From IMG/VR virus record IMGVR_UViG_2537561945_000003: 55,233 nucleotides of DNA; one strand, 5' to 3'. The notes under the pieces were generated by a model. It had not been told where the DNA came from. It saw nothing but the letters and a program-made list of their open reading frames with translations, and ran no database searches. Shown here piece by piece: positions 3,309 to 50,484 of this stretch. Source of the stretch: a virus (lineage: Duplodnaviria; Heunggongvirae; Uroviricota; Caudoviricetes). The translations under genes and the position numbers were made by a program. The first letter of the stretch is position 1. The number at the start of each line of letters is the position of its first letter.

Positions 3309-3884
3309 CTACGGCAGTGCTGGCCATTCAATATCCTGTGCAGTTGACGTATCAACACGGTTCAGCAATACCCGATACTTTTTCCATGCTTCCAGCAACG
3401 AGATTTCTTCCTCCGTTGCAATTTCCAGATCTGCAGCATCCTGAAGCGGCGCAATATGCTCACTGGCTACCTGCATCAGGTTGTTTTTTGTTTCTTCCGC
3501 CTCCCGGATCCGGAACAGTTTTTCTGCTTCCGTATCCTTCACCCAGGCTGTGCCGTTCCACTTCTGAAACTCCCCTTCCGGCGATAACCAGGTAACATTT
3601 TCCGGTAACGGACCGAGTTCAGAAATAAATAACGCGTCGCCGGAAGCCACGTCATAAACCGTTTTACCCCGATGATCTTCAACGAGATGCCACGATGACT
3701 CATCACTGTTGAAAACAGCCACGAAGCCAGCCGGAATATCTGGCGGTGCAATATCGGTACTGTTTGCTGGCAGACCTGTATGAGGCGGAATATATGCATC
3801 ACCTTCACCAATAAATTCATTAGTTCCGGCCAGCAGATTATAAATTTTTATGGTCCGTGGTTGTTCACTCATTCTGAATGCCAT
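3309..3884 (-). CDS. tfa: tail fiber assembly protein Tfa
   Basis: 191-aa ORF directly downstream of stf with ATGA start/stop overlap; lambda Tfa-like sequence. Confidence 0.85.
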
Positions 3885-28364: not shown

Positions 28365-28593
28365 GCAAAAAAGCTCCCGAAGGAGCCTTCATTTTCACTT
28401 TTTTAAATCCAACGACAGACGGCTGGCATTTAAGTATTGTGAAATATTATCAAATGTAATCATCATTGATTTACAAAAGATACATTTTGCCCCGAAAGGA
28501 TTCATGTCAGAAACATCAAAAGATGATGTTCTATACTGGGAACCATGACAACACGGGCATCTAAAGTGAATATGGTTTGTAATATTGTCTACC

Positions 28594-28806
28594 TCAAAGC
28601 GCCACTACATGAACAGCGGCAGGACCTTTAGGTCCGTTCTCAATACCAAATTCAACTTCCTGATTCTCAGTTAATGTTTTGAAATCGTTGCTCTGAATTG
28701 CTGAGAAATGGACAAACACATCTTTGCTGCCATCTTTCGGCGTGATGAAACCAAAACCTTTTTCAGGGTTAAACCATTTCACTAAACCAGTCATTTTGTT
28801 AGACAT
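28594..28806 (-). CDS. cspI: cold-shock protein CspI (CspA family)
   Basis: 70 aa [23 protein letters not shown]... with RNP1/RNP2 motifs. Confidence 0.9.
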
Positions 28807-29168
28807 AATTATTACCTTTTGAAGAAATTAGCCCTTGGGCAGAATGGTCCGAAAAAAAATATCAGAGAGAAAAACCAACAAGGAAATCTCAAGAGGTACA
28901 AATAATAAAATTATAACAATGACTGCTTCAGATAAATTTGTAACAAACCAGAACACCATTAACGCATGATTAACCACCCATAGCAAGGATTACTTTTGTA
29001 AAGAAAAACACAGCAATGAAAGAATAGCTTTATTTATTAATAAAACGTGTCATTCTGATTAAGACCTTTTATCTTACCCTTAAGATTTCAGGAATTTTGG
29101 CTCATGGAAGAGTCCTTTTTATTTAAATTTTACATTCCGCGATGTAAATGTTCCGATTTAATATTACC

Positions 29169-31193: not shown

Positions 31194-31477
31194 TTTGAGA
31201 TTGTGGTGCTTTTTGTGGGAGTCATCCACTTACGCACTTTGTTTTGCCATGCCAGCAGTTAGCTTCTGCTGTAAAACTATTCATGCAGCAAACCTGCACT
31301 TCACCACAATGGTTAGCATACTTTTCCTGATTAAGATTTTGCCAAATATGCTAGCCATTGTTTCATGTATTGGACCTCCTTACTTTTTATTAAAGAGATC
31401 CAATATTCACTACTCTGTCCGTATCTCTACTCAGGCATCAGCCTTCTTCGTTATCGTATACAGACGAGCGATGAATT

Positions 31478-31693
31478 TTAATCAGTAATGATGACATTTG
31501 CTGCTGCAGGACCTTTAGCACCACTCTCTATAGAGAAGGTAACCTTTTGACCTTCAAATAAGGTTCGATAATTATCATTCTGAATCGCAGAAAAATGCAC
31601 AAACACATCTTTACTACCATCAACAGGAGAAATAAAGCCGAAACCTTTATCAGCGTTAAACCATTTTACTAAACCAGTCATTTTATTTGACAT
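31478..31693 (-). CDS. cspB: cold-shock protein CspB
   Basis: 71 aa [34 protein letters not shown]. Confidence 0.9.
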
Positions 31694-31993
31694 TCTACAT
31701 TCCTTAACTTGAGCCTTTCGGCATAAATGGTTTGCATAACAGAAACGACTTCGTACTTAATTGGAGAGACTCAAAGAAGGAATAAGTGAATAACACCTGA
31801 AATGAGAACTGCTTTAGTAAACTACTTCGTATATCGTCTGTTCTTCAAACCGACGCAATCATTAACGCATAGTTGAACATATGAAGCAATGTTTATTTTA
31901 GACATCCAGCCATCTTCAACCCCATCAAAAAACTATAGCTTTCTTCAGGAACGTGTGTATAGTGCGCCAAGTTATCAGTATTAAGGAATTTTT

Positions 31994-35257: not shown

Positions 35258-35413
35258 TTACTCCTCAGGTTCGTAAGCTGTGAAGACAGCGACCTCCGTC
35301 TGGCCGGTTCGGATTCGTACCTCGCAGAGGTCTTTCCTCGTTACCAGTGCCGTCACTATGACGGTTAAACAGATGACGATCAGGGCGATTAACATCGCCT
35401 TTTGCTGCTTCAT
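35258..35413 (-). CDS. hokD: Hok-family type I toxin HokD (RelF)
   Basis: 51-aa ORF found by hand: MKQQKAMLIALIVICLTVIVTALVTRKDLCEVRIRTGQTEVAVFTAYEPEE; terminator-like hairpin CCCGCCGAAGCGGG downstream. Confidence 0.9.
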   Translation of the reverse strand: MKQQKAMLIALIVICLTVIVTALVTRKDLCEVRIRTGQTEVAVFTAYEPEE

Positions 35414-35484
35414 AGCCTGCTTCTCCTGTCAACGCAAAGCAGAAGTGTCACCTTCGGTGCGAAACAGAGATGTCATGCTTTGGT

Positions 35485-35590
35485 TCAGAGAATGCGTTTG
35501 ACCGCCTCGCTATATACTTCCGAGCGTTCTCTTTTCCCAACAGAAATCACGAAAACGACAACTTTCTCGTCTATAACCTGGTATACAAGG
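35485..35590 (-). pseudogene. relE: relE toxin, C-terminal fragment (gene split by IS629)
   Basis: encodes (L)VYQVIDEKVVVFVISVGKRERSEVYSEAVKRIL, the RelE C-terminus, fused in-frame to IS-derived codons. Confidence 0.9.
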
Positions 35591-35632
35591 TGAACCGCCC
35601 CGGGTTTCCTGGAGAGTGTTTTATCTGTGAAC

Positions 35633-36523
35633 TCAGGCTGCCAGATCATTGTTTCCGATGGAAGCATAATAAGCTTTTTCTGCTTCTGCCGGAGGAGTAT
35701 GGCCCAGCCTTCCCAGCAATCGTCGATTGTTATACCAGTCCACCCACGTTAGTGTGGCCAGTTCCACTTCTGCACGGTTTTTCCAGCTCTTACGGTGTAT
35801 TACCTCCGCTTTGTAAAGACCATTGATGCTCTCAGCCATCGCGTTGTCATACGAGTCGCCTGTACTCCCTGTTGATGCCAGTAATCCGGCTTCTTTTAGT
35901 CGCTCCGTATAGGCCAGTGACACATACTGAGAGCCTTTATCGCTGTGATGGATGGTGCCAGACGGACGACGGGCCCACAACGCCTGCTCCAGCGCATCCA
36001 GCACGAATGTCGTTTCCATAGACGATGAGACCCGCCACCCCACGATGTATCCGGCAAACACATCAATGATGAACGCCACATAGACGAAGCCCCGCCATGT
36101 GCTGACGTAAGTAAAATCAGCCACCCACAGCTGGTCAGGTCGTTCTGCCACGAACTGACGGTTTACGCGGTCGCCTGCGGCAACGGCTTTCCGGCTGATG
36201 GTCGTACGGACCTTTTTACCCCGGAGAACACCGGCAAGTCCCATAACCGCCATGAGGCGCGCCACTGTACATCTGGCCACCCTGATTCCTTCCCGTAACA
36301 ACTGACGCCAGACTTTACGCACACCGTACACCTGATGATTTTCATCGTATACGCGCTGTATCTCTCTCTTCAGCCAGTCATCGTGCTGCGCACGGGCACT
36401 GCGTTTATCCGGATGATGTCGCTGTTGCTGACAATGGTAATACGTTGACGGGGCAATATGCAGTTCGCTGCATACCGGTCCGACCCCGTACTGCTCACGC
36501 AGCTTATCCAGCAGTGGCATCAT
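35633..36523 (-). CDS. IS629 transposase OrfB (DDE integrase core)
   Basis: 296-aa ORF with DDE/rve domain, made as OrfAB fusion by -1 frameshift in IS3 family. Confidence 0.9.
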
Positions 36524-36846
36524 TTTTTCCAGAGGCGGTCGAACTCCGCCTTCGCAAAATAAGCGGAAGCCTGGCGAAGGATATCGTTACTGCGGCGCAG
36601 TTCACGATTTTCACGTTCCAGCTCTTTCAGACGCTGACGTTCAGCGCTGGTGAGCCCACCATCACCGCCCCCGGTATCCCGCTCATGCTGGCGAACCCAG
36701 ACACGCAGAGTCTCCGGCGTACAGCCAATCTTTGGGGCAATGGAACAAATTGCCGCCCACTGTGAGTCATATTCATCCTGACTTTCCAGAACCATACGAA
36801 TCGCCCGCTGACGGACTTCGGGGGAAAAACGAGTATTTTTAGTCAT
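36520..36846 (-). CDS. IS629 transposase OrfA (HTH, leucine zipper)
   Basis: 108 aa [41 protein letters not shown]; ends LWKK with A-run at the frameshift window. Confidence 0.9.
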
Positions 36847-36900
36847 CCTGTTTACCTCTTTCTCAGGGAGTTTAGTCTCCAGGATTTCCGGGGCGGTTCA

Positions 36901-37085
36901 AGGCGATAGCCTGAAGACCGGAGCTTAATCTTGTAACAATCAGGCATACCACGGAGCTTGTTTGCTTCAATCCGGGGTGACTCAAGTACTTCAACCAGCT
37001 TCTTTTTCAACTGTTCACGTACCGTCGAGCCCAGCTTTCGCCATTCCTTTAGTGCCCGCTCGTCAAAATCCAGAAAATACGCCAT
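36901..37085 (-). pseudogene. relE: relE toxin, N-terminal fragment (gene split by IS629)
   Basis: MAYFLDFDERALKEWRKLGSTVREQLKKKLVEVLESPRIEANKLRGMPDCYKIKLRSSGYRL, then reads into the IS. Confidence 0.9.
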
Positions 37086-37324
37086 CAGAGTTCATCCAGC
37101 GTCACACGTACTGGCTTAGGATTACGAAGCCGTTCTTTCACTATCTCCACAAGTTCAGCATCTTCATCACTCAGGAGTGTCTGTTTGAACGGCAAGCGTT
37201 CATTGTCAGCGATATACTCGAGCATGAGACGAAGCGCTTCAGAAGGAGTTACACCCATTTTTTCAAGCGCGGCGTAAGAACGCGCTTTAAGTTCATCGTC
37301 AATACGCAGGTTAATGCTACCCAT
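37085..37324 (-). CDS. relB: RelB antitoxin (intact)
   Basis: 79 aa MGSINLRIDDELKARSYAALEKMGVTPSEALRLMLEYIADNERLPF... Confidence 0.9.
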   Translation of the reverse strand: MGSINLRIDDELKARSYAALEKMGVTPSEALRLMLEYIADNERLPFKQTLLSDEDAELVEIVKERLRNPKPVRVTLDEL

Positions 37325-37348
37325 GTCTTACACCTCTTGTAATTACAA

Positions 37349-37654
37349 ATGTCATTACAAGTATCGCACTACAACATGCTTAGGGCAAGTCACGAAGGAA
37401 GTCAGAAAGTAGTCGTAAGAACGGTGATCACTGTCCGCTTTGTGCCAGGAGCAGCCATTGCTAAGTCCATCCTGTATTGTGCAGGTCAGCTCGTTTTTAA
37501 AGAGTCCGGCCATCATCTTACTGGTACAGACACCATATACTTTGTGACGGTCAGGCTACATATGCACAACTCAACTTATTCATCTATTTTTTGCTTTAGC
37601 ATGTCAGTGTTGCTTTCTCGTCGGCGGGTGAGCGGTGACCTGACCTGTCGATAA
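37349..37654 (+). CDS. hypothetical protein, possibly YdfV-like
   Basis: 101-aa ORF at the Qin ydfV position and size; sequence not recognised. Confidence 0.3.
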   Translation: MSLQVSHYNMLRASHEGSQKVVVRTVITVRFVPGAAIAKSILYCAGQLVFKESGHHLTGTDTIYFVTVRLHMHNSTYSSIFCFSMSVLLSRRRVSGDLTCR

Positions 37655-37889
37655 AGGAACGTAACACGTTTTATGCAACACCCGCATGCGGCAGAAAATT
37701 ATTGCCGAACGTTTACCCCTGTCAACAAGCTTTACTTTCTGAGGCGCGCCAGCCCGCGAGGAAAACAATCTGAACATCAAACAATTAATGACACAAGAAA
37801 TACGATTAAAGATTTTTTGTAAGCGTACAGCCTGAACCGTCTGGTCAGAATCTGACGAATTAGACAAAGTGGTGTCCACCAAATAAGTA

Positions 37890-38291
37890 GTGGGAACCAA
37901 AGTATCAGATATGCAGAAAAATGTGACTCCCGGCAGGCGAAAAGGCTGCCCTAATTATCCTCCCGAATTTAAACAGCAGCTCGTTGCTGCCTCCTGTGAA
38001 CCCGGGATATCCATCTCAAAACTTGCTCTTGAAAATGGCATTAACGCCAATCTGTTGTTCAAATGGCGACAACAATGGCGCGAGGGAAAACTGCTATTAC
38101 CTTCTTCAGAGAGCCCCCAGCTACTTCCTGTGACTCTCGATGCAGCTGCCGAACAGCCAGAATCGCTCGCAGAGGACCCGGAAACCCTCAGTATCAGCTG
38201 TGAGGTAACGTTCCGGCACGGGACGCTCCGCTTCAATGGCAATGTCAGCGAAAAGCTCCTGACTCTGCTGATACAGGAACTGAAGCGATGA
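37890..38291 (+). CDS. IS66-family accessory protein OrfA (TnpA)
   Basis: 133-aa ORF, first of the IS66 triplet. Confidence 0.85.
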   Translation: MGTKVSDMQKNVTPGRRKGCPNYPPEFKQQLVAASCEPGISISKLALENGINANLLFKWRQQWREGKLLLPSSESPQLLPVTLDAAAEQPESLAEDPETLSISCEVTFRHGTLRFNGNVSEKLLTLLIQELKR

Positions 38292-38635
38292 TCCCGTTAC
38301 CTTCCGGGACCAAAATTTGGCTGGTTGCCGGTATCACCGATATGAGAAATGGCTTCAACGGCCTGGCTGCGAAAGTACAAACGGCGCTGAAAGACGATCC
38401 CATGTCCGGCCATGTTTTCATTTTCCGGGGCCGCAGCGGCAGTCAGGTTAAACTGCTGTGGTCCACCGGTGACGGACTGTGCCTCCTGACCAAACGGCTG
38501 GAGCGTGGGCGCTTCGCCTGGCCGTCAGCCCGTGATGGCAAAGTGTTCCTTACGCAGGCGCAGCTGGCGATGCTGCTGGAAGGTATCGACTGGCGACAGC
38601 CTAAGCGGCTGCTGCCCTCCCTGACCATGCTGTAA
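38288..38635 (+). CDS. IS66-family accessory protein OrfB (TnpB)
   Basis: 115 aa [26 protein letters not shown]... Confidence 0.9.
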
Positions 38636-38684
38636 ATCTCTTTATCCTGGTTGTCACAGAATAAGCCCGGTAAAATACGGGCTT

Positions 38685-40223
38685 ATGAACGACATCTCTT
38701 CTGACGACATCTTCCTGCTGAAACAGCGCCTGGCCGAACAGGAAGCGCTGATCCACGCCCTGCAGGAAAAGCTGAGCAACCGGGAGCGCGAAATAGACCA
38801 TCTGCAGGCGCAGTTGGATAAACTCCGCCGGATGAACTTCGGCAGTCGTTCCGAAAAAGTCTCCCGCCGTATCGCACAAATGGAAGCCGATCTGAACCGG
38901 CTTCAGAAAGAGAGCGATACGCTGACTGGTAGGGTGTATGACCCGGCAGTACAGCGTCCGTTGCGTCAGACCCGCACCCGTAAGCCGTTCCCTGAATCAC
39001 TACCCCGTGACGAAAAGCGACTGTTGCCTGCGGCGCCGTGCTGCCCGAACTGCGGCGGTTCACTGAGCTATCTGGGCGAGGATACCGCCGAACAGCTGGA
39101 GTTGATGCGTAGCGCCTTCCGGGTTATCCGGACGGTACGGGAAAAACATGCCTGTACTCAGTGCGATGCCATCGTGCAGGCACCTGCACCTTCGCGGCCC
39201 ATCGAGCGGGGTATCGCCGGACCGGGGCTGCTGGCCCGCGTGCTGACCTCGAAGTATGCAGAGCACACCCCGCTGTATCGCCAGTCAGAAATATACGGCC
39301 GGCAAGGTGTGGAGCTGAGGCGTTCACTGCTGTCGGGCTGGGTGGATGCATGCTGCCGGCTGCTGTCTCCGCTGGAAGAGGCGCTTCATGGCTATGTCAT
39401 GACTGACGGCAAACTCCATGCCGATGATACCCCGGTCCAGGTACTGCTGCCGGGTAATAAGAAGACGAAGACCGGGCGGTTGTGGGCGTATGTTCGTGAT
39501 GACCGCAATGCCGGGTCAGCGTTGGCACCTGCAGTGTGGTTCGCTTACAGCCCGGACAGAAAAGGCATCCATCCGCAGACTCATCTTGCCTGCTTCAGCG
39601 GTGTGCTGCAAGCGGATGCGTACGCCGGGTTCAACGAGCTTTATCGCAATGGTGGGATAACGGAAGCTGCCTGCTGGGCTCATGCCCGCCGAAAGATCCA
39701 CGATGTGCACGTCCGCATCCCGTCAGCACTGACGGAAGAAGCCCTGGAGCAGATCGGTCAGTTGTACGCCATAGAGGCGGATATAAGGGGAATGCCGGCA
39801 GAGCAGCGGCTTGCTGAACGTCAGCGAAAAACGAAACCGTTGTTGAAATCCCTGGAAAGCTGGTTGCGTGAAAAGATGAAGACCCTGTCGCGACACTCAG
39901 AGTTGGCGAAGGCGTTCGCGTACGCACTTAACCAGTGGCCGGCACTGACGTACTATGCGAACGATGGCTGGGTGGAAATCGACAACAACATCGCTGAAAA
40001 TGCCCTGCGGGCGGTCAGTCTGGGTCGTAAAAACTTCCTGTTCTTCGGCTCTGACCATGGTGGTGAGCGGGGAGCGCTACTGTACAGCCTGATCGGGACG
40101 TGCAAACTGAATGACGTGGATCCAGAAAGCTACCTTCGCCATGTGCTTGGCGTCATAGCAGACTGGCCGGTCAACCGGGTCAGCGAACTGCTTCCGTGGC
40201 GCATAGCACTGCCAGCTGAATAA
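38685..40223 (+). CDS. IS66-family transposase OrfC
   Basis: 512 aa with CxxC zinc-ribbon and DDE region. Confidence 0.9.
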
Positions 40224-40306
40224 CACATCCCCGTCAATACGGCCCTCGCTGTACGCTTACGATTTTTTTGTGCATGCCGATAGTGCTTTTTTAAAAGGAG
40301 AAATCT

Positions 40307-40639
40307 ATGTCTGTCACAATTCAGGGAAATACCTCAACCGTTATTTCAAACAACTCCGCCCCGGAAGGAACATCAGAAATAGCCAAAATCACAAGACAAA
40401 TTCAGGTGCTGACTGAAAAGCTTGGGAAAATCTCATCGGAAGAGGGGATGACGACACAGCAGAAAAAAGAAATGGCTGCATTGGTACAGAAGCAAATTGA
40501 AAGCCTCTGGGCTCAACTGGAGCAGTTGTTAAGGCAGCAGGCAGAGAAAAAGAATGAAGACGCGACAGTTCAGCCTGATAAAAAAGAAGAGAAAAAAGAC
40601 GATACAAATACCGCTGGCACCATTGATATTTACGTCTAA
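40307..40639 (+). CDS. flxA: FlxA (FliA-regulated protein)
   Basis: 110 aa MSVTIQGNTSTVISNNSAPEGTSEIAKITRQIQVLTEKLG...; sigma-28 -10-like GCCGATAG about 25 nt upstream. Confidence 0.85.
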   Translation: MSVTIQGNTSTVISNNSAPEGTSEIAKITRQIQVLTEKLGKISSEEGMTTQQKKEMAALVQKQIESLWAQLEQLLRQQAEKKNEDATVQPDKKEEKKDDTNTAGTIDIYV

Positions 40640-41075
40640 GTGACAGCCGTATTGTGGCCCTCATCGGGCCACTTTTCGCCATCAGCCTTTTCTTTAAAGA
40701 CATATTATCTTTGTATCATTTCTGATAGTTAACATTACAAGATATAAGTAATGGACGCACTCCCAATTAGTCTATTTAAATCGCCACGAGTTTAACTGAC
40801 AACCCATGATCAATTATGAATTGCAACTATTTCTGTAGTCACTTTTGTGGGGACAGTCCACAAAACTGCCAACTTCCGCTTCTTGCTCTTAGCGGACATT
40901 AGCATAGGCTATTTACCATAACGCCTCATTACGCGCACCGCCCAGACTGACTCAGCGCGTTTCTGGCATATCCCCGGTAAAACAAGTAACAAACCACCCG
41001 AAAATGAACACCAGAAACGCGACTTAAGAATCTACCCTATGAATGGATATGCACTCAACCGAATCGATCTTGGTT

Positions 41076-42368
41076 TCAATCTTTTTTATCGGGATCAGGC
41101 TTCTTTTTAGGTAACTTCGGGGGCTTAACTTGCTGATGACTTTGCGTTCGGCGCGTAAGCCAGGGATGGTCAGCTTTAGGTTTAACATAGTATTTTGAGC
41201 GTAAATCAATACGGGCATTATCCACTCGTTCATGGACACTCTTTTCATCATCCAGTGGTATAGGCTCCGGGCCATCAACATACTTTTCCCAGCCCAGCGC
41301 TTTCCCGTCATACAGAACGTTAATTTCACCGTCAAAGTTCTCGCATACAGTAACAACCGAATGCCTAAGTCGATATCCCCGGCCCTCACTGCGTACCTGA
41401 AACGCACTGCTTTTGTACTGGAAAGTGAGATTTTTAGACAGAACGCGCTTCGCCTGTAGGCTGAAGATATAACCCAGTTCCTCTTCAGAATGGTGCACAT
41501 CAAGATGAGCATTATCAGTAGTACGAGGCGACGTAGCGAACCGGTTGTTATAGGCTTCAATAAAGGTCGGCAACCATGCATTTGCTGTTTCAATATCACT
41601 GATATTCTGAAGCCGCATTTCTTTGACCAGCCTGTCCTGTAGTGTCTGATTGGCGCGCTCTACCCGCCCTTTTGCCTGCGGGCTGTTGGCATGGATTGGC
41701 TCGATGCCCAGTGTCTTTATCGCACGAGTGAACTGGGTCAGCTCACCTTCCCGCTCTGGGTTATTTACCCTGAATATACTGTGTCTATCAGAGTAGAGAG
41801 CGAGCGGTACGCCATGATCATTAAGGTAACCCCGGAGGGTTTCCATGTAAGCCCGGGTTGTTTCAGCAGGCACAAAACGCAACGCCATCAACGCACTGGT
41901 GGCATCATCAATGAAAACGATCAGTGTACATCTGGGGCCTCGATTTTCAAACCAGTCATGAGGTGAGCCATCAATCTGGATCAGTTCACCGTAAGATGGT
42001 CGTCGCATGCGGCGTTGATATATACGGGCAATTTTACGACGGCGTTCACGCCATAACCCCTCTTCTATCATCCACTTTCTGAGAGTTTCAACGGATAAAG
42101 ATAAACCGTGTATCTCGCGCAATTTTTCGCACGCAAACGTAGGTCCAAAATCAGCGTAACGGCCTTTGAGGAGTGAAATTACTGTTGCTCTGAATTCAGT
42201 AGAAAAGGAATTATTAGGACGCTTTCCACGTCGGTGGGAAACCAGACCAGAAGGCCCTTCATTTCTATACCGTTGCACCAGACGTTTAACCTGCCGAATA
42301 GAAATGCCAATGCGTGCCGCAGCTTGTTCCTGAATAATCTGAAGTCGGTGGAGTTCCTTATGACTCAT
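41076..42368 (-). CDS. DDE-type transposase (rve/integrase-core; IS481- or ISNCY-like)
   Basis: ORF 41076..42389, likely start MSHKELHRLQ at 42368; N-terminal HTH then D..D..E core (IQIDGS, FIDDATS, GRVERAN); IS ends not determined. Confidence 0.8.
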   Translation of the reverse strand: MSHKELHRLQIIQEQAAARIGISIRQVKRLVQRYRNEGPSGLVSHRRGKRPNNSFSTEFRATVISLLKGRYADFGPTFACEKLREIHGLSLSVETLRKWMIEEGLWRERRRKIARIYQRRMRRPSYGELIQIDGSPHDWFENRGPRCTLIVFIDDATSALMALRFVPAETTRAYMETLRGYLNDHGVPLALYSDRHSIFRVNNPEREGELTQFTRAIKTLGIEPIHANSPQAKGRVERANQTLQDRLVKEMRLQNISDIETANAWLPTFIEAYNNRFATSPRTTDNAHLDVHHSEEELGYIFSLQAKRVLSKNLTFQYKSSAFQVRSEGRGYRLRHSVVTVCENFDGEINVLYDGKALGWEKYVDGPEPIPLDDEKSVHERVDNARIDLRSKYYVKPKADHPWLTRRTQSHQQVKPPKLPKKKPDPDKKD

Positions 42369-42723
42369 CGTAACAGTCTCTTTGATCATGAAAAATCCCC
42401 CAGAGAATTGTCTGGGGACATTTTAGAATGGTTCAAAGGGGACATTACAGCTTGGTGTTAACAATAGCCTGCTTCTCCGTGCCTTTCGGCACGTAAGAGG
42501 CTAACCTACATGTGTCTAGCATGAAATTGGCCTCAGATTAATGTTAAGCGTCTTGCAGGACGCGTAATGTTAACTGGGGCTTTTCTCTATCTGCCGTTGG
42601 TGTCCATGCCCGAGGCAGATAGCCTCAAGCACCCGCAGTCATTCTACTTAACTAAGATTTCCCCGCAAACCGTTTTTGTCCAGCACAGTAAATATCCAAC
42701 TAAACCAATGGAGTTCGCTGTAT

Positions 42724-42903
42724 TTACCGCCAGTATTCAATGCACATGACCGCCATGAACACCCCTAAAAAAAGGGCATTTATATATCCAAATATTAATA
42801 TCAAAACATCAACTTTTTCCATATACCTTGCTGTGAAGATGATGGGCATACATGATGCGAACAACCAGAACGCAACAAACAAAAACTGCAATGCGTTTTT
42901 CAT
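42724..42903 (-). CDS. hypothetical small membrane protein (59 aa, two predicted TM helices)
   Basis: ATG at 42903 preceded by GGAGGA at ideal spacing; MKNALQFLFVAFWLFASCMPIIFTARYMEKVDVLILIFGYINALFLGVFMAVMCIEYWR; sits in an AT-rich islet. Confidence 0.4.
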   Translation of the reverse strand: MKNALQFLFVAFWLFASCMPIIFTARYMEKVDVLILIFGYINALFLGVFMAVMCIEYWR

Positions 42904-43666
42904 TATTCCTCCTACAATCAATGTGCAATTACATTTAAACACACCTCAATTTGGCCGGACATATAAATATCTAAACCAGAAAAAATCACTTACATAGCGT
43001 TACAAACTCTTTAGTCTAAAGGTTCATCGTAAAACATTCCCCATACTTATCAGTCCGTTCCGCGCCAGGTAGCTCATTGCCTTATCTGGCAACCTGTAAT
43101 CAGGTTTCCGCTTTTTCAGTTGGCTGGTCGTTTAACCGACATAGTTAATCCATTAATCTAGTTGCCGGATGTTGGTGGATTTTCGCGTTTTAGTTGTTCA
43201 TAAAAGTGCACAGCTTTAACCAGTTCTTCTGATGTAACTGGGACTGGTGAGGCAGTGAATAAGGCCTGAATTTGATAGTTCGGCCTGTCGTTACAATCCT
43301 CTTTTTTCGGTACATATTTCCAGTCACCAGACCACTACTTCCCCTGAAAGTCCGTAACGCCTTTTTTCACGTAGCGATATCGCCATGCCACTGGTTTTGC
43401 TTGCCCCGCCGTTTCATGCCCTTCCTGATAATTAATCTCGCTCATTCATCGCCCCACTCATCACAATATGCTTCGACCGGAGTTTTTCCCGCTTCATAGT
43501 CATCACGCTAGGATTCGACATCAGCAGCACTTCCACCGCGTAACTCACCATAGTCCATTAATAGTTCATCCCGCTCTTCAAAACTGTAAGCGTCGTCTCA
43601 GCACCGTCTGGCAGATCCTGAAATTCCTGAGAGAATAGTGGACACCAAATATGGTGGACGCAATCC

Positions 43667-44071
43667 ATGAAATCATTAACCGCAGTGCGTAAAAAAAGCC
43701 CTAATTATCCCGTTGAGTTCAAAATCAAAATGGTTGAACTCTCGCATCGACCAGAGATCTCCGTAGCGCAACTCGCTCGTGAGCATGGGATCAACGATAA
43801 TTTGCTGTTCAAGTGGCGCCAGTACTGGCGCGAAGGAAAACTACGTCCTCCTTCAACAACAGAAAACAACGTGCCTGAGCTGCTCCCGATAACACTTGAT
43901 GCCGAAGATGTTGTCCCTACAACCTCCCCCCGGTCACAACCTGTAGCTGCTGCGACACCTGAATCACTCAATATCAGCTGTGAAGTGACGTTCCGGCACG
44001 GATCACTCCGTCTGAATGGTGCCATCAGCGAAAATATCCTGAACCTGCTGATACGGGAGCTCAAACGTTGA
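43667..44071 (+). CDS. IS66-family OrfA
   Basis: 134-aa ORF. Confidence 0.85.
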   Translation: MKSLTAVRKKSPNYPVEFKIKMVELSHRPEISVAQLAREHGINDNLLFKWRQYWREGKLRPPSTTENNVPELLPITLDAEDVVPTTSPRSQPVAAATPESLNISCEVTFRHGSLRLNGAISENILNLLIRELKR

Positions 44072-44415
44072 TCCCATTACCATCAGGGACAAAGATCTGG
44101 CTGGTCGCTGGCATCACCGATATGAGAAACGGCTTCAACGGCCTGGCGGCAAAGGTGCAGACGACGCTGAAAGACGATCCGATGTCAGGTCACGTTTTTA
44201 TCTTCCGTGGGCGTAATGGCAGTCAGGTAAAGCTCCTCTGGTCTACCGGCGATGGACTGTGTCTGCTGACCAAACGGCTGGAGCGCGGCCGCTTCGCCTG
44301 GCCGTCAGCCCGGGATGGCAAAGTGTTCCTCACACCGGCACAGCTGGCGATGCTGCTGGAAGGTATCGACTGGCGGCAGCCTAAAAGACTGCTTACGTCC
44401 CTGACTATGTTGTAA
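44068..44415 (+). CDS. IS66-family OrfB
   Basis: 115-aa ORF. Confidence 0.9.
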   Translation: MIPLPSGTKIWLVAGITDMRNGFNGLAAKVQTTLKDDPMSGHVFIFRGRNGSQVKLLWSTGDGLCLLTKRLERGRFAWPSARDGKVFLTPAQLAMLLEGIDWRQPKRLLTSLTML

Positions 44416-44463
44416 GCCTCTTTATCCTGGTCGACGCTGAATGAGCCTGGTAATATACCCGGT

Positions 44464-45999
44464 ATGAGCAGCTCACTTCCTGACGATATCAATGCACTGA
44501 AACGTCTCCTTGCCGAACAGGAGGCGCTGAACCGTGCCCTGCAGGAAAAGCTGAACGAGCGTGAACGCGAAATAGACCATCTGCAGGCACAGCTGGATAA
44601 GCTGCGCCGGATGAACTTCGGCAGCCGCTCGGAAAAAGTCTCCCGTCGTATCGCACAGATGGAAGCTGACCTGAAGGCACTTCAGAAAGAAAGTGATACC
44701 CTTACCGGTCGGGTTGACGACCCGGCCGTGCAGCGCCCGCTGCGTCAAACCCGCACCCGCAAACCGTTCCCCGAATCACTCCCCCGCGATGAAAAACGGC
44801 TGCTGCCGGCAGCGTCATGCTGCCCGGAATGTGGAGGCTCGCTGAGCTATCTGGGTGAGGATGCCGCCGAACAGCTGGAGCTGATGCGCAGCGCCTTCCG
44901 GGTTATCCGGACTGTACGTGAAAAGCATGCCTGTACTCAGTGCGATGCCATCGTGCAGGCCCCCGCGCCTTCACGGCCCATCGAGCGGGGTATCGCAGGA
45001 CCGGGGCTGCTGGCCCGCGTGCTGATCTCAAAGTATGCAGAGCACACCCCGCTGTACCGCCAGTCTGAAATGTACGGCCGCCAGGGCGTGGAGCTGAGTC
45101 GTTCACTGCTGTCGGGCTGGGTGGATGCATGCTGCCGGCTACTGTCACCGCTGGAAGAAGCGCTTCAGGACTATGTGCTGACTGACGGTAAGCTCCATGC
45201 TGATGACACGCCTGTCCCGGTGCTGTTGCCAGGCAATAAGAAAACGAAGACCGGGCGGTTATGGACCTACGTTCGTGACGACCGTAACGCCGGGTCAACG
45301 CTGGCGCCGGCGGTGTGGTTCGCTTACAGCCCGGACAGAAAAGGCATCCATCCGCAGACCCATCTTGCGGGGTTCAGTGGTGTACTGCAGGCGGATGCAT
45401 ACGCCGGGTTCAACGAGCTGTACCGGGATGGCCGGATAACGGAAGCCGCCTGTTGGGCTCACGCCCGCCGTAAAATCCACGATGTGCACGTTCGCACCCC
45501 GTCAGCCCTGACGGAGGAAGCGCTGAAACGGATCGGCGAACTGTACGCCATCGAGGCAGAGATAAGGGGAATGACGGCGGAGCAGCGCCTTGCCGAACGT
45601 CAGTTGAAAACGAAACCGCTGCTGAAATCCCTGGAAAGCTGGCTGCGTGAAAAGATGAAAACCCTGTCGCGACACTCAGAACTGGCGAAAGCGTTCGCAT
45701 ACGCCCTGAACCAGTGGCCGGCGCTGACGTACTATGCAGATGATGGCTGGGCTGAGGCGGACAATAACATCGCTGAAAATGCGTTGCGGATGGTCAGTCT
45801 GGGCCGCAAAAACTACCTGTTCTTCGGTTCGGATCATGGAGGAGAGCGGGGAGCGCTGCTGTACAGCCTGATCGGGACGTGCAAACTGAACGGAGTGGAG
45901 CCAGAAAGCTACCTCCGCTATGTCCTTGACGTCATAGCCGACTGGCCGATAAACCGGGTCGGCGAACTGCTCCCCCTGGCGCGTAGCACTGCCGACTGA
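44464..45999 (+). CDS. IS66-family transposase OrfC
   Basis: 511-aa ORF. Confidence 0.9.
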
Positions 46000-46518
46000 A
46001 TAACACATCCCCGTCAATACGGTTCTTGCTGCACGCTTACTCAAAACTGATGTTATATTTAGCTGAACAAAAATCAGCCACTTTGTTCTTCCTCATCGTC
46101 TTTTATTTCGTGGTATGAGTAATTGCAGTAGTTAAAGAAAATTTCTTATGCTCCGTCATGAATTTCCTCAGGTGTTGCGTCATCGTCCACTTCGAATACA
46201 TCCTCAAAATCTCCACCAGCTATTCCCGTTTCAATAATAATTTTGAACTTTCGCATTTCACTACCGCCCTTTCGGGCGGCCTCCTGATGTTCTGAGGGTG
46301 CAGAAATCCATCCGGTTAAGGATTAAATTTTATTTACAGAACTGAATTTAATTATTCAGATATACGTATCTGTAGCCTTACGAATCTACTCACTGGATGC
46401 CTCTTTCATAAAAATAATCCAGTGGGTTTTATCGTTTTTTCCCTGTTCGTTGACAGATAACAGGTTTTCTGTCTGTCAGTGCCAGAATCTGGCTTACCGG
46501 TATTTGCGTTTCATTCCA

Positions 46519-50426: not shown

Positions 50427-50484
50427 TTTCTGGTGACGTTTGGCGGTATCAGTTTTACTCCGTGACTGCTCTGCCGCCCTTTTT
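50427..50484 (+). ncRNA. dicF: DicF small RNA (Hfq-dependent, targets ftsZ mRNA), ending in its intrinsic terminator
   Basis: TTTCTGGTGACGTTTGGCGGTATCAGTTTTACTCCGTGACTGCTCTGCCGCCCTTTTT matches remembered DicF; located between ydfC and dicB. Confidence 0.85.

What the first reader, a model, noticed from the sequence alone, without database searches (positions are those of the whole stretch)
42560..43020. Small membrane protein gene with a strong RBS in an AT-rich islet
A 59-aa ORF with two hydrophobic segments is preceded by GGAGGA at ideal spacing, in a markedly AT-rich patch between the transposase and the second IS66. Size and hydrophobicity are compatible with a type I toxin or small regulatory membrane protein; no antisense partner was identified.
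Basis: seen in the sequence. Interest (0 to 1): 0.45.

Follow-up and report, generated by a model that had tools for sequence, protein, structure and literature searches.

The report
Unannotated prophage small membrane protein gene
The 59-codon reading frame is a real, conserved but unannotated gene for a tiny two-helix membrane protein of E. coli Qin-type prophages; it is probably not a toxin itself, but it sits directly upstream of a classic hok/sok toxin–antitoxin locus that a transposon has split in this strain.

Summary
A 59-aa ORF lies on the minus strand (42903..42724), preceded by AGGAGGA 3-4 nt before the ATG. It sits in a 37-38% GC patch between an ISNCY/IS1202-family transposase and ISEc22, inside a decayed Qin-type lambdoid prophage.

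The ORF is a genuine gene. A second E. coli lineage (41% identity, same length, no indels, dN/dS ~0.24) lies in an island between ttcA and uspF. Only this frame is open in both lineages. AlphaFold2 predicts a helical hairpin.

No Pfam, PHROG, NCBIfam, PADLOC or PDB match was found, and RefSeq does not annotate the ORF. The family has only these two lineages, both in Escherichia/Shigella sequences.

The type I toxin reading is not supported. I found no conserved antisense promoter or terminator, the leader folds no better than shuffles, and the SD is unpaired.

The real type I module is the neighbour. Rfam sok/hok-leader scores 104 bits at 42634..42463, truncated at the hok ATG by a relBE-carrying transposon. 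In 162/162 loci the ORF is followed by hok or a hok remnant.

Function is unknown. My best guess is an oligomerising accessory ("moron") membrane protein. Interest is modest.

The parts
42724..42903 (-). CDS of the 59-aa two-helix membrane protein (includes the stop codon)
   Evidence: Conserved in a second lineage with the same length and no indels, dN/dS 0.24. All 176 full-length copies sampled are intact.
42907..42913 (-). Shine-Dalgarno AGGAGGA, 3-4 nt before the ATG
   Evidence: Unpaired in the MFE fold.
42904..43038 (-). About 135-nt upstream region that belongs to the same module (leader and/or promoter, undefined)
   Evidence: Aligns at about 61% identity with the second lineage. Mosaic breakpoints among 85 loci lie at -117 to -195. 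No sigma70-like promoter called.
43009..43021 (.). 13-nt palindrome CTTTAGACTAAAG. The second lineage has CTTCAGTCTGAAG, i.e. a two-sided change that keeps the symmetry.
   Evidence: alignment. Forms a small hairpin in both folds. Function unknown.
42680..42723 (-). 3' flank of the ORF module, up to the boundary with the hok module
   Evidence: Similarity to the second lineage runs about 45 nt past the stop. Similarity to the Stx-phage hokW loci begins at 42680.
42641..42668 (-). Inferred hok promoter: TTGCGG, 16 nt, TAGAAT, 6 nt before the hok mRNA 5' end
   Evidence: Read. The position is inferred from the Rfam hit start. Not called by the strict scan.
42463..42634 (-). hok mRNA 5' leader (with the mok 5' part), truncated exactly at the hok start codon
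   Evidence: Rfam RF01794, 104 bits, E 1e-22, full model. Collinear with the intact hok locus of phage vB_EcoS-640R1 down to 42464.
42479..42584 (+). Inferred orphan Sok antisense gene: -35 GTGCCT at 42479-84, -10 TAACCT at 42502-07, RNA at about 42514-42584
   Evidence: Mapped by position from the annotated sokW of phage 933W onto the sequence. Inference, not shown.
42464..42478 (.). 15-bp target-site duplication, copy 1 (minus strand GGAGAAGCAGGCTAT = hok SD through 'AT' of the ATG)
35412..35426 (.). 15-bp target-site duplication, copy 2, directly in front of hokD
35427..42463 (-). IS1202/ISNCY-family transposon: tnp (42389..41076), flxA, ydfV, relB, relE. Later interrupted by ISEc8 (about 37819-40260) and an IS3-family element (about 35591-36900).
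   Evidence: Ends are TGTTAACACCAAGCTGTAATGTCCCC and TGTCAACGCAAAGCAGAAGTGTCACC, 19/26 identical with TGT termini. The empty site is seen in L004. Annotation. The 15-17 bp DR subgroup is described in bioRxiv 10.1101/2022.12.17.520857.
35258..35413 (-). hokD CDS, the displaced toxin gene of the split hok/sok locus
   Evidence: 98% identical to the hok of L004.
43024..43445 (-). Upstream nin-region gene, here a frameshifted pseudogene
   Evidence: RefSeq annotation of identical sequence
43587..46040 (+). ISEc22 (IS66 family) insertion. It cuts the ORF off from the prophage early-right operon.

Best explanation
The ORF is a genuine protein-coding gene for a 59-aa helical-hairpin (two-pass) inner-membrane protein. 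It is carried on a roughly 360-bp AT-rich accessory module of Qin-type lambdoid prophages, in the region between the replication genes and the Q antiterminator, on the same strand as those genes. [quoted passage not shown]

In this window the hok/sok locus has been split by a relBE-carrying IS1202-family transposon. The ORF is therefore now followed by an orphan hok promoter, hok leader and Sok gene, and then by the transposase.

Inferred mechanism (not shown): the protein inserts N-in/C-in. It self-associates or docks onto a host membrane protein through its conserved small and polar face (S17-C18, P20, T24 in helix 1; G39-x3-A43-x3-G47 with N42 in helix 2; E56, W58-R59 at the C-terminus). 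It then acts as a prophage accessory ('moron'-type) envelope factor, for example in exclusion or modulation of a membrane function. It would be translated efficiently from an exposed strong SD whenever the region is transcribed. It is not an antisense-controlled type I toxin.
For: Real gene:
- A second lineage (P0042/P0037) is 59 aa, 41% identical and has no indel. NG86 gives dN 0.47 and dS 1.98. Only this one of six frames is open in both lineages.
- Flanking non-coding alignment has many gaps; the ORF has none.
- Polymorphism is 5/180 sites in the ORF, against about 8% in the immediate flanks, among 85 Qin-type loci.
- The lineage-2 ORF is identical in DNA-sampled genomes whose flanks differ by 1-1.5% and carry a 68-bp deletion.
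- 176/176 full-length copies are intact.

Membrane hairpin: hydropathy and AlphaFold2 helices 2-26 and 28-58.

Module and prophage context. Boundaries. GC.

hok linkage: 141/141 Qin-type loci with enough sequence have the hok leader downstream (78 with intact hok, 63 with the transposon). 21/21 lineage-2 loci have a hok 3' remnant at +67.

Not type I-like.
Against: - No expression data are available. No sigma70-like promoter was found upstream in either lineage. In this window ISEc22 separates the ORF from the phage early operon.
- Within lineages the distinct substitutions are 10 nonsynonymous to 1 synonymous. That gives no sign of current purifying selection at the amino-acid level, although all common changes are conservative hydrophobic swaps.
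- The family is confined to two lineages, both in Escherichia/Shigella sequences.
- NCBI's pipeline does not call the gene.
- The proposed function rests on analogy only. No homologue of known function exists.
Confidence: 0.55

Rival explanations
1. It is itself a type I toxin whose antisense RNA was not recognised. Overexpression would depolarise or permeabilise the membrane, and a cis-encoded sRNA over the conserved 135-nt leader would block its translation.
For: The protein is small and very hydrophobic (GRAVY 1.27). It has a conserved ~135-nt upstream region. One terminator-like hairpin lies on the opposite strand at 43091-43106. It sits next to another type I system. Lineage 2 has promoter-like hexamers on the antisense strand inside the ORF.
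Against: The terminator-like stem is broken in phage 640R1 and absent in lineage 2. The antisense promoter-like sites of lineage 2 have no counterpart in the window. The leader folding z-scores are about 0 and the strong SD is unpaired, unlike known type I toxin mRNAs. Two TM helices are atypical. The ORF stays intact in about 1000 genomes inside a fully decayed island with no visible partner.
Confidence: 0.1
2. It is a functional partner of Hok: a protein component of the hok/sok cassette, for example one that modulates Hok insertion or oligomerisation, or that dampens Hok.
For: Adjacency is invariant. In 162/162 loci from both lineages the ORF is followed by hok or a hok remnant, in the same orientation and about 70-90 nt away. 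The ORF was never found without hok.
Against: The two lineages may simply descend from one ancestral arrangement, so this is effectively a single observation. hok/sok modules occur without the ORF, and in Stx phages the similarity stops at the module boundary. The ORF is retained intact where hok is destroyed (lineage 2) or moved 7 kb away (this window). The hok mRNA has its own promoter downstream of the ORF.
Confidence: 0.1
3. It is a non-functional relic: an ORF that was once coding, or is merely open, and is now drifting in cryptic prophage DNA.
For: The N:S ratio is 10:1 within lineages. No promoter was found. PGAP does not call it. Its surroundings are pseudogenes and IS elements. IS1-disrupted and frameshifted variants exist.
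Against: Zero indels and zero stops across about 42% nucleotide divergence, with a chance open frame at P about 0.009. Its polymorphism is lower than in the flanks. Polar and small residues in the helices are conserved. Disrupted alleles are rare compared with the intact alleles, which are seen on at least 1000 contigs each. It is present in inducible phages.
Confidence: 0.15
4. It is a holin-like or lysis-timing protein (pinholin or antiholin type) acting with the phage lysis system.
For: It is a small phage-borne protein with two TM helices and a glycine-zipper-like G-x3-A-x3-G motif. Weak, non-significant structural neighbours include holins (E > 1).
Against: It is not in the lysis cassette. 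In phage 640R1 the holin, endolysin and Rz lie about 6 kb away, beyond Q. It matches no holin family in Pfam or PHROGs. It is retained in remnants that lack any lysis genes.
Confidence: 0.05

Closest known systems
[quoted passage not shown]
   Same: This is the immediate genomic neighbour. The Rfam RF01794 leader starts about 90 nt after the ORF stop. In uninterrupted phages the ORF is followed by a hok encoding a protein identical to HokD. Both are small hydrophobic membrane peptides carried as accessory cargo.
   Different: The ORF product has two TM helices and no Hok/Gef similarity. It lies outside the hok transcript, upstream of the hok promoter. It has no mok-like overlapping frame, no fold-back leader and no antisense gene of its own.
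Prophage 'morons' encoding small envelope proteins (e.g. lambda bor/lom, sie/exclusion genes). From general knowledge, not tested here.
   Same: It is a discrete module with GC content far from that of its neighbours, inserted between genes of a phage operon. It is found in only some relatives, with sharp mosaic boundaries, and it encodes a membrane protein.
   Different: The own promoter and terminator that define a moron were not found. No phenotype is known. There is no sequence relationship to any named moron product.
Chromosomal type I toxins of E. coli (TisB, LdrD, IbsC, ShoB, DinQ, ZorO). From general knowledge.
   Same: Under 60 aa, strongly hydrophobic, alpha-helical, encoded in intergenic-looking DNA.
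   Different: Those have one TM helix, structured leaders that hide the SD or a standby site, and a defined antisense or divergent sRNA. Here there are two helices, an exposed consensus SD and no sRNA signal.
Class II holins / pinholins (e.g. S21, 71 aa, two TMDs). From general knowledge.
   Same: Phage-encoded, about 60-70 aa, two TM helices, small-residue helix-packing motif.
   Different: The genomic position is wrong: nin-type region rather than the lysis cassette. There is no family match. It persists in prophage remnants without lysis genes.
Small regulatory inner-membrane proteins of E. coli (AcrZ, MgtS, MgrB, etc.). From general knowledge.
   Same: Tiny hydrophobic proteins missed by annotation. 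They act by binding larger membrane proteins.
   Different: Those are core-genome, mostly single-pass, and have known partners and regulons. This one is prophage-borne, two-pass, absent from K-12 and has no known partner.

Membership tests
Type I toxin-antitoxin system (the ORF as toxin) | Small hydrophobic membrane peptide | tested here: met
   59 aa, GRAVY 1.27, two hydrophobic segments
Type I toxin-antitoxin system (the ORF as toxin) | Cognate antisense or divergent sRNA gene with promoter and terminator, conserved with the toxin | tested here: not met
   No promoter-like site on either strand of 42400-43300. The single terminator-like hairpin is not conserved. Lineage-2 antisense hexamers are not shared. 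The simple scans are insensitive, so this is not absolute.
Type I toxin-antitoxin system (the ORF as toxin) | Toxin mRNA leader structure that restrains translation (sequestered SD) | tested here: not met
   Fold z-scores are +0.22 and -0.41. The SD is unpaired in the MFE structure.
Type I toxin-antitoxin system (the ORF as toxin) | Toxicity on expression, neutralised by the RNA | not testable with these tools
   Needs inducible expression
Hok/Gef protein family | Sequence match to the Hok/Gef family; single N-terminal TM plus a periplasmic tail with conserved Cys | tested here: not met
   No Pfam or NCBIfam hit at E <= 10. The architecture is two helices.
hok/sok locus (the neighbouring element at 42463-42634) | hok mRNA leader / Sok region matching the covariance model | tested here: met
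   RF01794, 104.1 bits against a gathering score of 59, full-length model
hok/sok locus (the neighbouring element at 42463-42634) | Contiguous mok/hok reading frames downstream of the leader | tested here: not met
   The leader ends at the transposon IRL at 42463. The hokD CDS is at 35258-35413, behind the second copy of the 15-bp duplication. Contiguous in 78 of 141 related loci.
Moron (autonomous accessory module in a phage genome) | Atypical base composition and sharp mosaic boundaries relative to related phages | tested here: met
   GC 0.37-0.38 against about 0.46-0.50. Boundaries at about -117 to -195 and at 42680.
Moron (autonomous accessory module in a phage genome) | Own promoter and terminator allowing expression from the repressed prophage | tested here: inconclusive
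   None detected by consensus scan. The conserved upstream 135 nt could hold a non-consensus promoter.
Class II holin / pinholin | Located in the lysis cassette next to endolysin; match to a holin family | tested here: not met
   The lysis genes of phage 640R1 are about 6 kb away, beyond Q. No PHROG or Pfam holin hit.
IS1202 family, ISTde1-type subgroup (the adjacent transposon) | 15-17 bp direct target repeat, imperfect IRs starting TGT, HTH + DDE transposase, optional passenger genes | tested here: met
   15-bp DR. IRs are 19/26 identical and both start with TGT. HTH_32/HTH_29 + rve_3 domains. Subgroup assignment by transposase phylogeny was not tested.

The most novel reading that the evidence does not exclude
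The two-helix protein is a third, proteinaceous component of a hok/sok cassette, for example a membrane partner that tunes or licenses Hok killing, or that protects the lysogen. This would explain why it has never been found apart from hok or a hok remnant in 162 loci from two lineages that have diverged to 41% identity.
Probability: 0.08. Interest if true: 0.7.

Novelty: new member of a known kind. Interest (0 to 1): 0.3.

Why it matters
If expressed, this is one more unannotated small membrane protein of E. coli. It is present in roughly a quarter to a half of complete genomes: the Qin-type copy in about 1545 records and the ttcA-island paralogue in 1045 of 5426 genomes. It is absent from K-12, so the K-12 small-protein surveys could not have seen it.

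Its fixed position in front of hok/sok offers a simple test of whether prophage type I toxins have protein partners.

The work also corrects two annotations. Phage records annotate the opposite-strand frame ('hornerin'), which is not conserved. RefSeq annotates nothing at this position.

As a by-product, the locus suggests how the relB-relE-hokD operon arose. A relBE-carrying IS1202-family transposon landed between the hok leader and the hok start codon. This cannot be seen in K-12, because K-12 has deleted the left junction.

Tried and rejected
- Family searches. Pfam, PHROGs, NCBIfam and PADLOC gave no hits with the single sequence and its paralogue P0037, and Pfam was repeated on every alignment member. 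The only thing seen was DUF4212 at E 0.03 for lineage 2, which is not significant. A PDB profile search found nothing. Foldseek against BFVD found nothing below E = 1. The afdb50 library was unavailable.
- Homologue searches. An exhaustive phmmer search of 1.84 billion representatives found only the two lineages. So did the GTDB genome scan, the IMG/VR scan, the metagenome scan, and the plasmid and phage tblastn searches.
- A wrong turn. I first took the lineage-2 contigs L005 and L090 for a degenerate endosymbiont genome because of their fragmented genes. I rejected this: their synteny (dgcM-zntB-dbpA-ttcA ... uspF-ompN-ydbK) is E. coli, and L090 is an indel-rich assembly.
- The weak plus-strand Rfam 'sok' hit (18.9 bits) only reflects the palindromic stem of the leader.
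- A full-text literature search for the peptide sequences returned nothing.
- Promoter hunting by eye in the conserved upstream block gave no convincing -35/-10 pair.
- The 72-aa GTG-initiated version annotated in some GenBank records is rejected. The SD lies inside it, and lineage 2 has no in-frame upstream start.

Full report
**Where we are.** The window is E. coli chromosome, 100% identical over 17 kb to strains F41, K99S and EC24.26. The finding lies in a decayed Qin-type lambdoid prophage. On the minus strand the gene order is as follows:
- dicC (cro-like), a ydaT-like gene, the O replication gene, DUF977, a methyltransferase and DUF7167;
- [ISEc22 insertion];
- a frameshifted small gene, then the ORF of the finding;
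- an ISNCY-family transposase/ydfW, flxA, [ISEc8], ydfV, relB, relE [interrupted by an IS3-family element], hokD, rem, ydfU and the Q-like antiterminator ydfT.

**The observation.** The ORF runs 42903..42724 on the minus strand and encodes 59 aa.
- AGGAGGA ends 3 nt before the ATG (AGGAGG is 4 nt away). This is a consensus SD at a slightly short spacing.
- GC is 0.37-0.38 across 42650-43100, against 0.44-0.50 around it and 0.55-0.64 in the IS66-family elements.
- Hydropathy shows two hydrophobic stretches separated by the loop ARYMEKVD. AlphaFold2 on a 9-sequence alignment gives two helices, 2-26 and 28-58, at pLDDT 74.
- SD + ATG + an ORF of at least 50 aa occurs 5 times in the window, against 1.7 +/- 1.4 in shuffles. 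A 59-codon open frame at local composition has P about 0.009.

The pattern is therefore suggestive but not decisive on its own.

**Is it a gene?** Close homologues (at least 92% identity) are all from E. coli or Shigella. They are named only 'hypothetical' or 'membrane protein'. RefSeq's pipeline does not annotate the ORF in any record I inspected. GenBank phage records instead annotate the opposite-strand 85-aa frame, once as 'hornerin'.

An exhaustive phmmer search, followed by a profile search, revealed a second lineage (P0037/P0042). It is exactly 59 aa, 41% identical, and aligns without a gap. Comparing the two lineages:
- The DNA is 58% identical, with differences of 25/18/31 at codon positions 1/2/3.
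- NG86 gives dN 0.47 and dS 1.98, a ratio of about 0.24, with dS near saturation.
- Only this one of the six frames is open in both. The 'hornerin' frame is full of stops in lineage 2.
- About 135 nt upstream and about 45 nt downstream also align at about 61% identity, but with many gaps. The ORF has none.
- Invariant residues are M1, L5, L8, W13, S17, C18, P20, I21, I22, T24, L36, F38, G39, N42, A43, L44, E56, W58 and R59. They include a G39-x3-A43-x3-G47 small-residue face with a mid-helix Asn.

Lineage 2 lies in a fixed chromosomal island between ttcA and uspF. The island contains an integrase fragment, a DUF1627 fragment, the ORF, a hok 3' remnant and a sitD fragment. It is present in 1045 of 5426 complete genomes, including CFT073 and the type strain. 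The Qin-type 801-bp region is covered at 80% or more in 1545 records. K-12 MG1655 has neither copy.

**Population data are mixed.**
- Among 85 Qin-type loci the ORF has 5 segregating sites in 180 nt. The 116 nt upstream have 9, the 90-nt spacer to hok has 7, and the hok leader has 26 in 155 nt.
- In lineage 2 the ORF is identical across haplotypes that differ at about 2.7% of flanking sites. This includes three genomes picked by DNA similarity alone, one of which has a 68-bp deletion just downstream.
- All 176 full-length copies are intact. Disrupted alleles (IS1 insertions, frameshifts) exist but are rare.
- However, the distinct substitutions within lineages are 10 nonsynonymous to 1 synonymous. 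The common ones are A16V, V31I, I37M and Y40H, all conservative, and two of them move toward the lineage-2 residue. Present-day amino-acid constraint is therefore not demonstrated.

I conclude that the ORF is, or recently was, a protein-coding gene. I leave a 15% chance that it is now only a relic.

**What sits next to it.** Rfam's sok model (RF01794) matches 42634..42463 on the minus strand at 104 bits, over the full length of the model. The match begins GGGUGCUUGAGG and ends at the hok SD and start codon, so it has the orientation of the hok mRNA leader. By position relative to the annotated sokW of phage 933W, the Sok RNA itself would be made from the plus strand at about 42514-42584, with -35 GTGCCT and -10 TAACCT at 42479-42507. 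This is inference.

A plausible hok promoter (TTGCGG, 16 nt, TAGAAT; 42668-42641) lies between the ORF stop and the leader. The ORF is therefore outside the hok transcript.

In phage vB_EcoS-640R1 the same ORF (one substitution, A16V) is followed by an intact leader, mok and hok. The hok product is identical to HokD.

Across all loci with enough sequence, 78 have this intact arrangement and 63 have the interruption seen in the window. All 21 lineage-2 loci carry a hok 3' remnant 67 nt after the stop. The ORF has thus never been seen without hok or its remains.

The reverse does not hold. The Stx-phage hokW loci share the hok module only up to window position 42680 and have a different gene upstream.

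**The interruption (outside the finding, but it explains the locus).** The hok leader stops at 42463/42464.
- The 15 nt GGAGAAGCAGGCTAT (hok SD through 'AT' of the ATG) occur again at 35426..35412, directly in front of hokD.
- The 7037 bp between the two copies end in TGTTAACACCAAGCTGTAATGTCCCC and, at the other end in inverted orientation, TGTCAACGCAAAGCAGAAGTGTCACC. These are 19/26 identical and both start with TGT.
- Without the later ISEc8 and IS3-family insertions the unit is about 3.3 kb. It comprises a transposase (437 aa, HTH + rve_3), flxA, ydfV and relBE.
- A 15-17-bp target duplication, TGT termini and passenger genes are the described hallmarks of one subgroup of the IS1202 family (bioRxiv 10.1101/2022.12.17.520857).
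- Phage 640R1 shows the empty site.

So a relBE-carrying transposon inserted between the hok leader and the hok ATG. This created the relB-relE-hokD arrangement and left an orphan hok promoter, leader and Sok next to our ORF. I did not find this described, but the Gerdes-era literature is not in the searchable library.

**Type I toxin?**
- The consensus scans find no promoter-like site on either strand of 42400-43300.
- The one terminator-like hairpin, on the plus strand at 43091-43106, has a broken stem in phage 640R1 and no counterpart in lineage 2.
- Antisense promoter-like hexamers inside the lineage-2 ORF are not shared by the window.
- The 177-nt and 188-nt leaders of the two lineages fold no better than shuffles (z = +0.22 and -0.41), and the SD is single-stranded.

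These features, together with the two TM helices, differ from those of known type I toxins. Toxicity as such remains untested.

**Mechanism.** Shown:
- a conserved two-helix hydrophobic protein with a consensus SD;
- a roughly 360-bp AT-rich module with mosaic boundaries;
- invariant linkage to hok;
- location in the replication-to-Q region, on the strand of the early-right operon.

Inferred:
- N-in/C-in topology. Lineage 2 has R2 K3 at the N-terminus, an acidic loop (E26, E30) and R59 at the C-terminus.
- Helix packing or oligomerisation through the conserved small and polar face.
- Expression by read-through of delayed-early transcription, or from an unrecognised promoter in the conserved 135 nt.
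- A role as an accessory envelope factor of the prophage.

In this particular window ISEc22 cuts the ORF off from the phage operon. Only an own promoter could therefore express it here.

**Verdict.** The ORF founds a small, E. coli/Shigella-restricted, function-unknown family of prophage small membrane proteins. That makes it a new member of a familiar kind, and of modest interest unless the hok linkage proves functional.

Noticed in passing
window 35412-42478: relB-relE, ydfV, flxA and the ISNCY-family transposase/ydfW form one ~3.3-kb IS1202-family transposon (7037 bp here, after later ISEc8 and IS3-family insertions). It is bounded by 26-nt imperfect IRs with TGT ends and a 15-bp target duplication. 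It inserted between the hok leader and the hok ATG, which would explain the origin of the relB-relE-hokD(relF) operon. Phage 640R1 shows the empty site.
   Followed up: partly
window 42463-42668: An orphan hok promoter, a truncated hok/mok leader and a Sok gene now point into the transposon IRL and the transposase gene (start at 42389). Read-through from the hok promoter, possibly modulated by Sok, could drive transposase expression. The Sok -35 is GTGCCT here, against TTGCCT in phage 640R1.
   Followed up: no
window 42740-42997 (+): The opposite-strand 85-aa ORF is annotated as a CDS in GenBank phage records ('hornerin' in ON470612/ON470619, 'hypothetical protein' in PV340562). That frame is closed by many stops in the second lineage, so the annotation is probably on the wrong strand.
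   Followed up: yes
window 43009-43021: A 13-nt palindrome CTTTAGACTAAAG lies about 105 nt upstream of the ATG. The diverged lineage has CTTCAGTCTGAAG, a two-sided change that preserves the symmetry. It could be a protein operator or a small RNA hairpin.
   Followed up: partly
window 37819-40260 and 43587-46040: Two different IS66-family elements (ISEc8 and a frameshifted ISEc22), both on the plus strand, bracket the segment 40261-43586 that holds flxA, the transposase, the hok leader and the ORF.
   Followed up: no
L092 5000-7200 (E. coli chromosome between ttcA and uspF; also CFT073, L104): This is a decayed island at the Rac attachment gene ttcA. It holds an integrase fragment, a DUF1627 fragment, the intact 59-aa paralogue, a hok 3' remnant and a frameshifted sitD-like permease. 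It is present in 1045/5426 complete genomes. The paralogue is the only intact reading frame in it and is not annotated by RefSeq.
   Followed up: partly
ORF alleles across 176 loci: Within-lineage substitutions are 10 nonsynonymous to 1 synonymous, although overall polymorphism is low and the between-lineage dN/dS is about 0.24. The common I37M and Y40H changes move toward the residues of the other lineage. Unexplained: it could be relaxed constraint, recombination or diversifying selection.
   Followed up: partly
L003 (phage PhiR42_1, PV340562): A phage recovered from ECOR13 and deposited as a complete genome carries the transposon-interrupted arrangement (transposase, flxA, relBE, hokD). The interrupted Qin-type genome may therefore still be a viable phage.
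   Followed up: no
window 28567-28952, 31462-31854, 50428-50479, 3343-3541: Other Rfam hits in the window are two cspA-type thermoregulator leaders, DicF sRNA and IS009. These are expected Qin prophage features.
   Followed up: no
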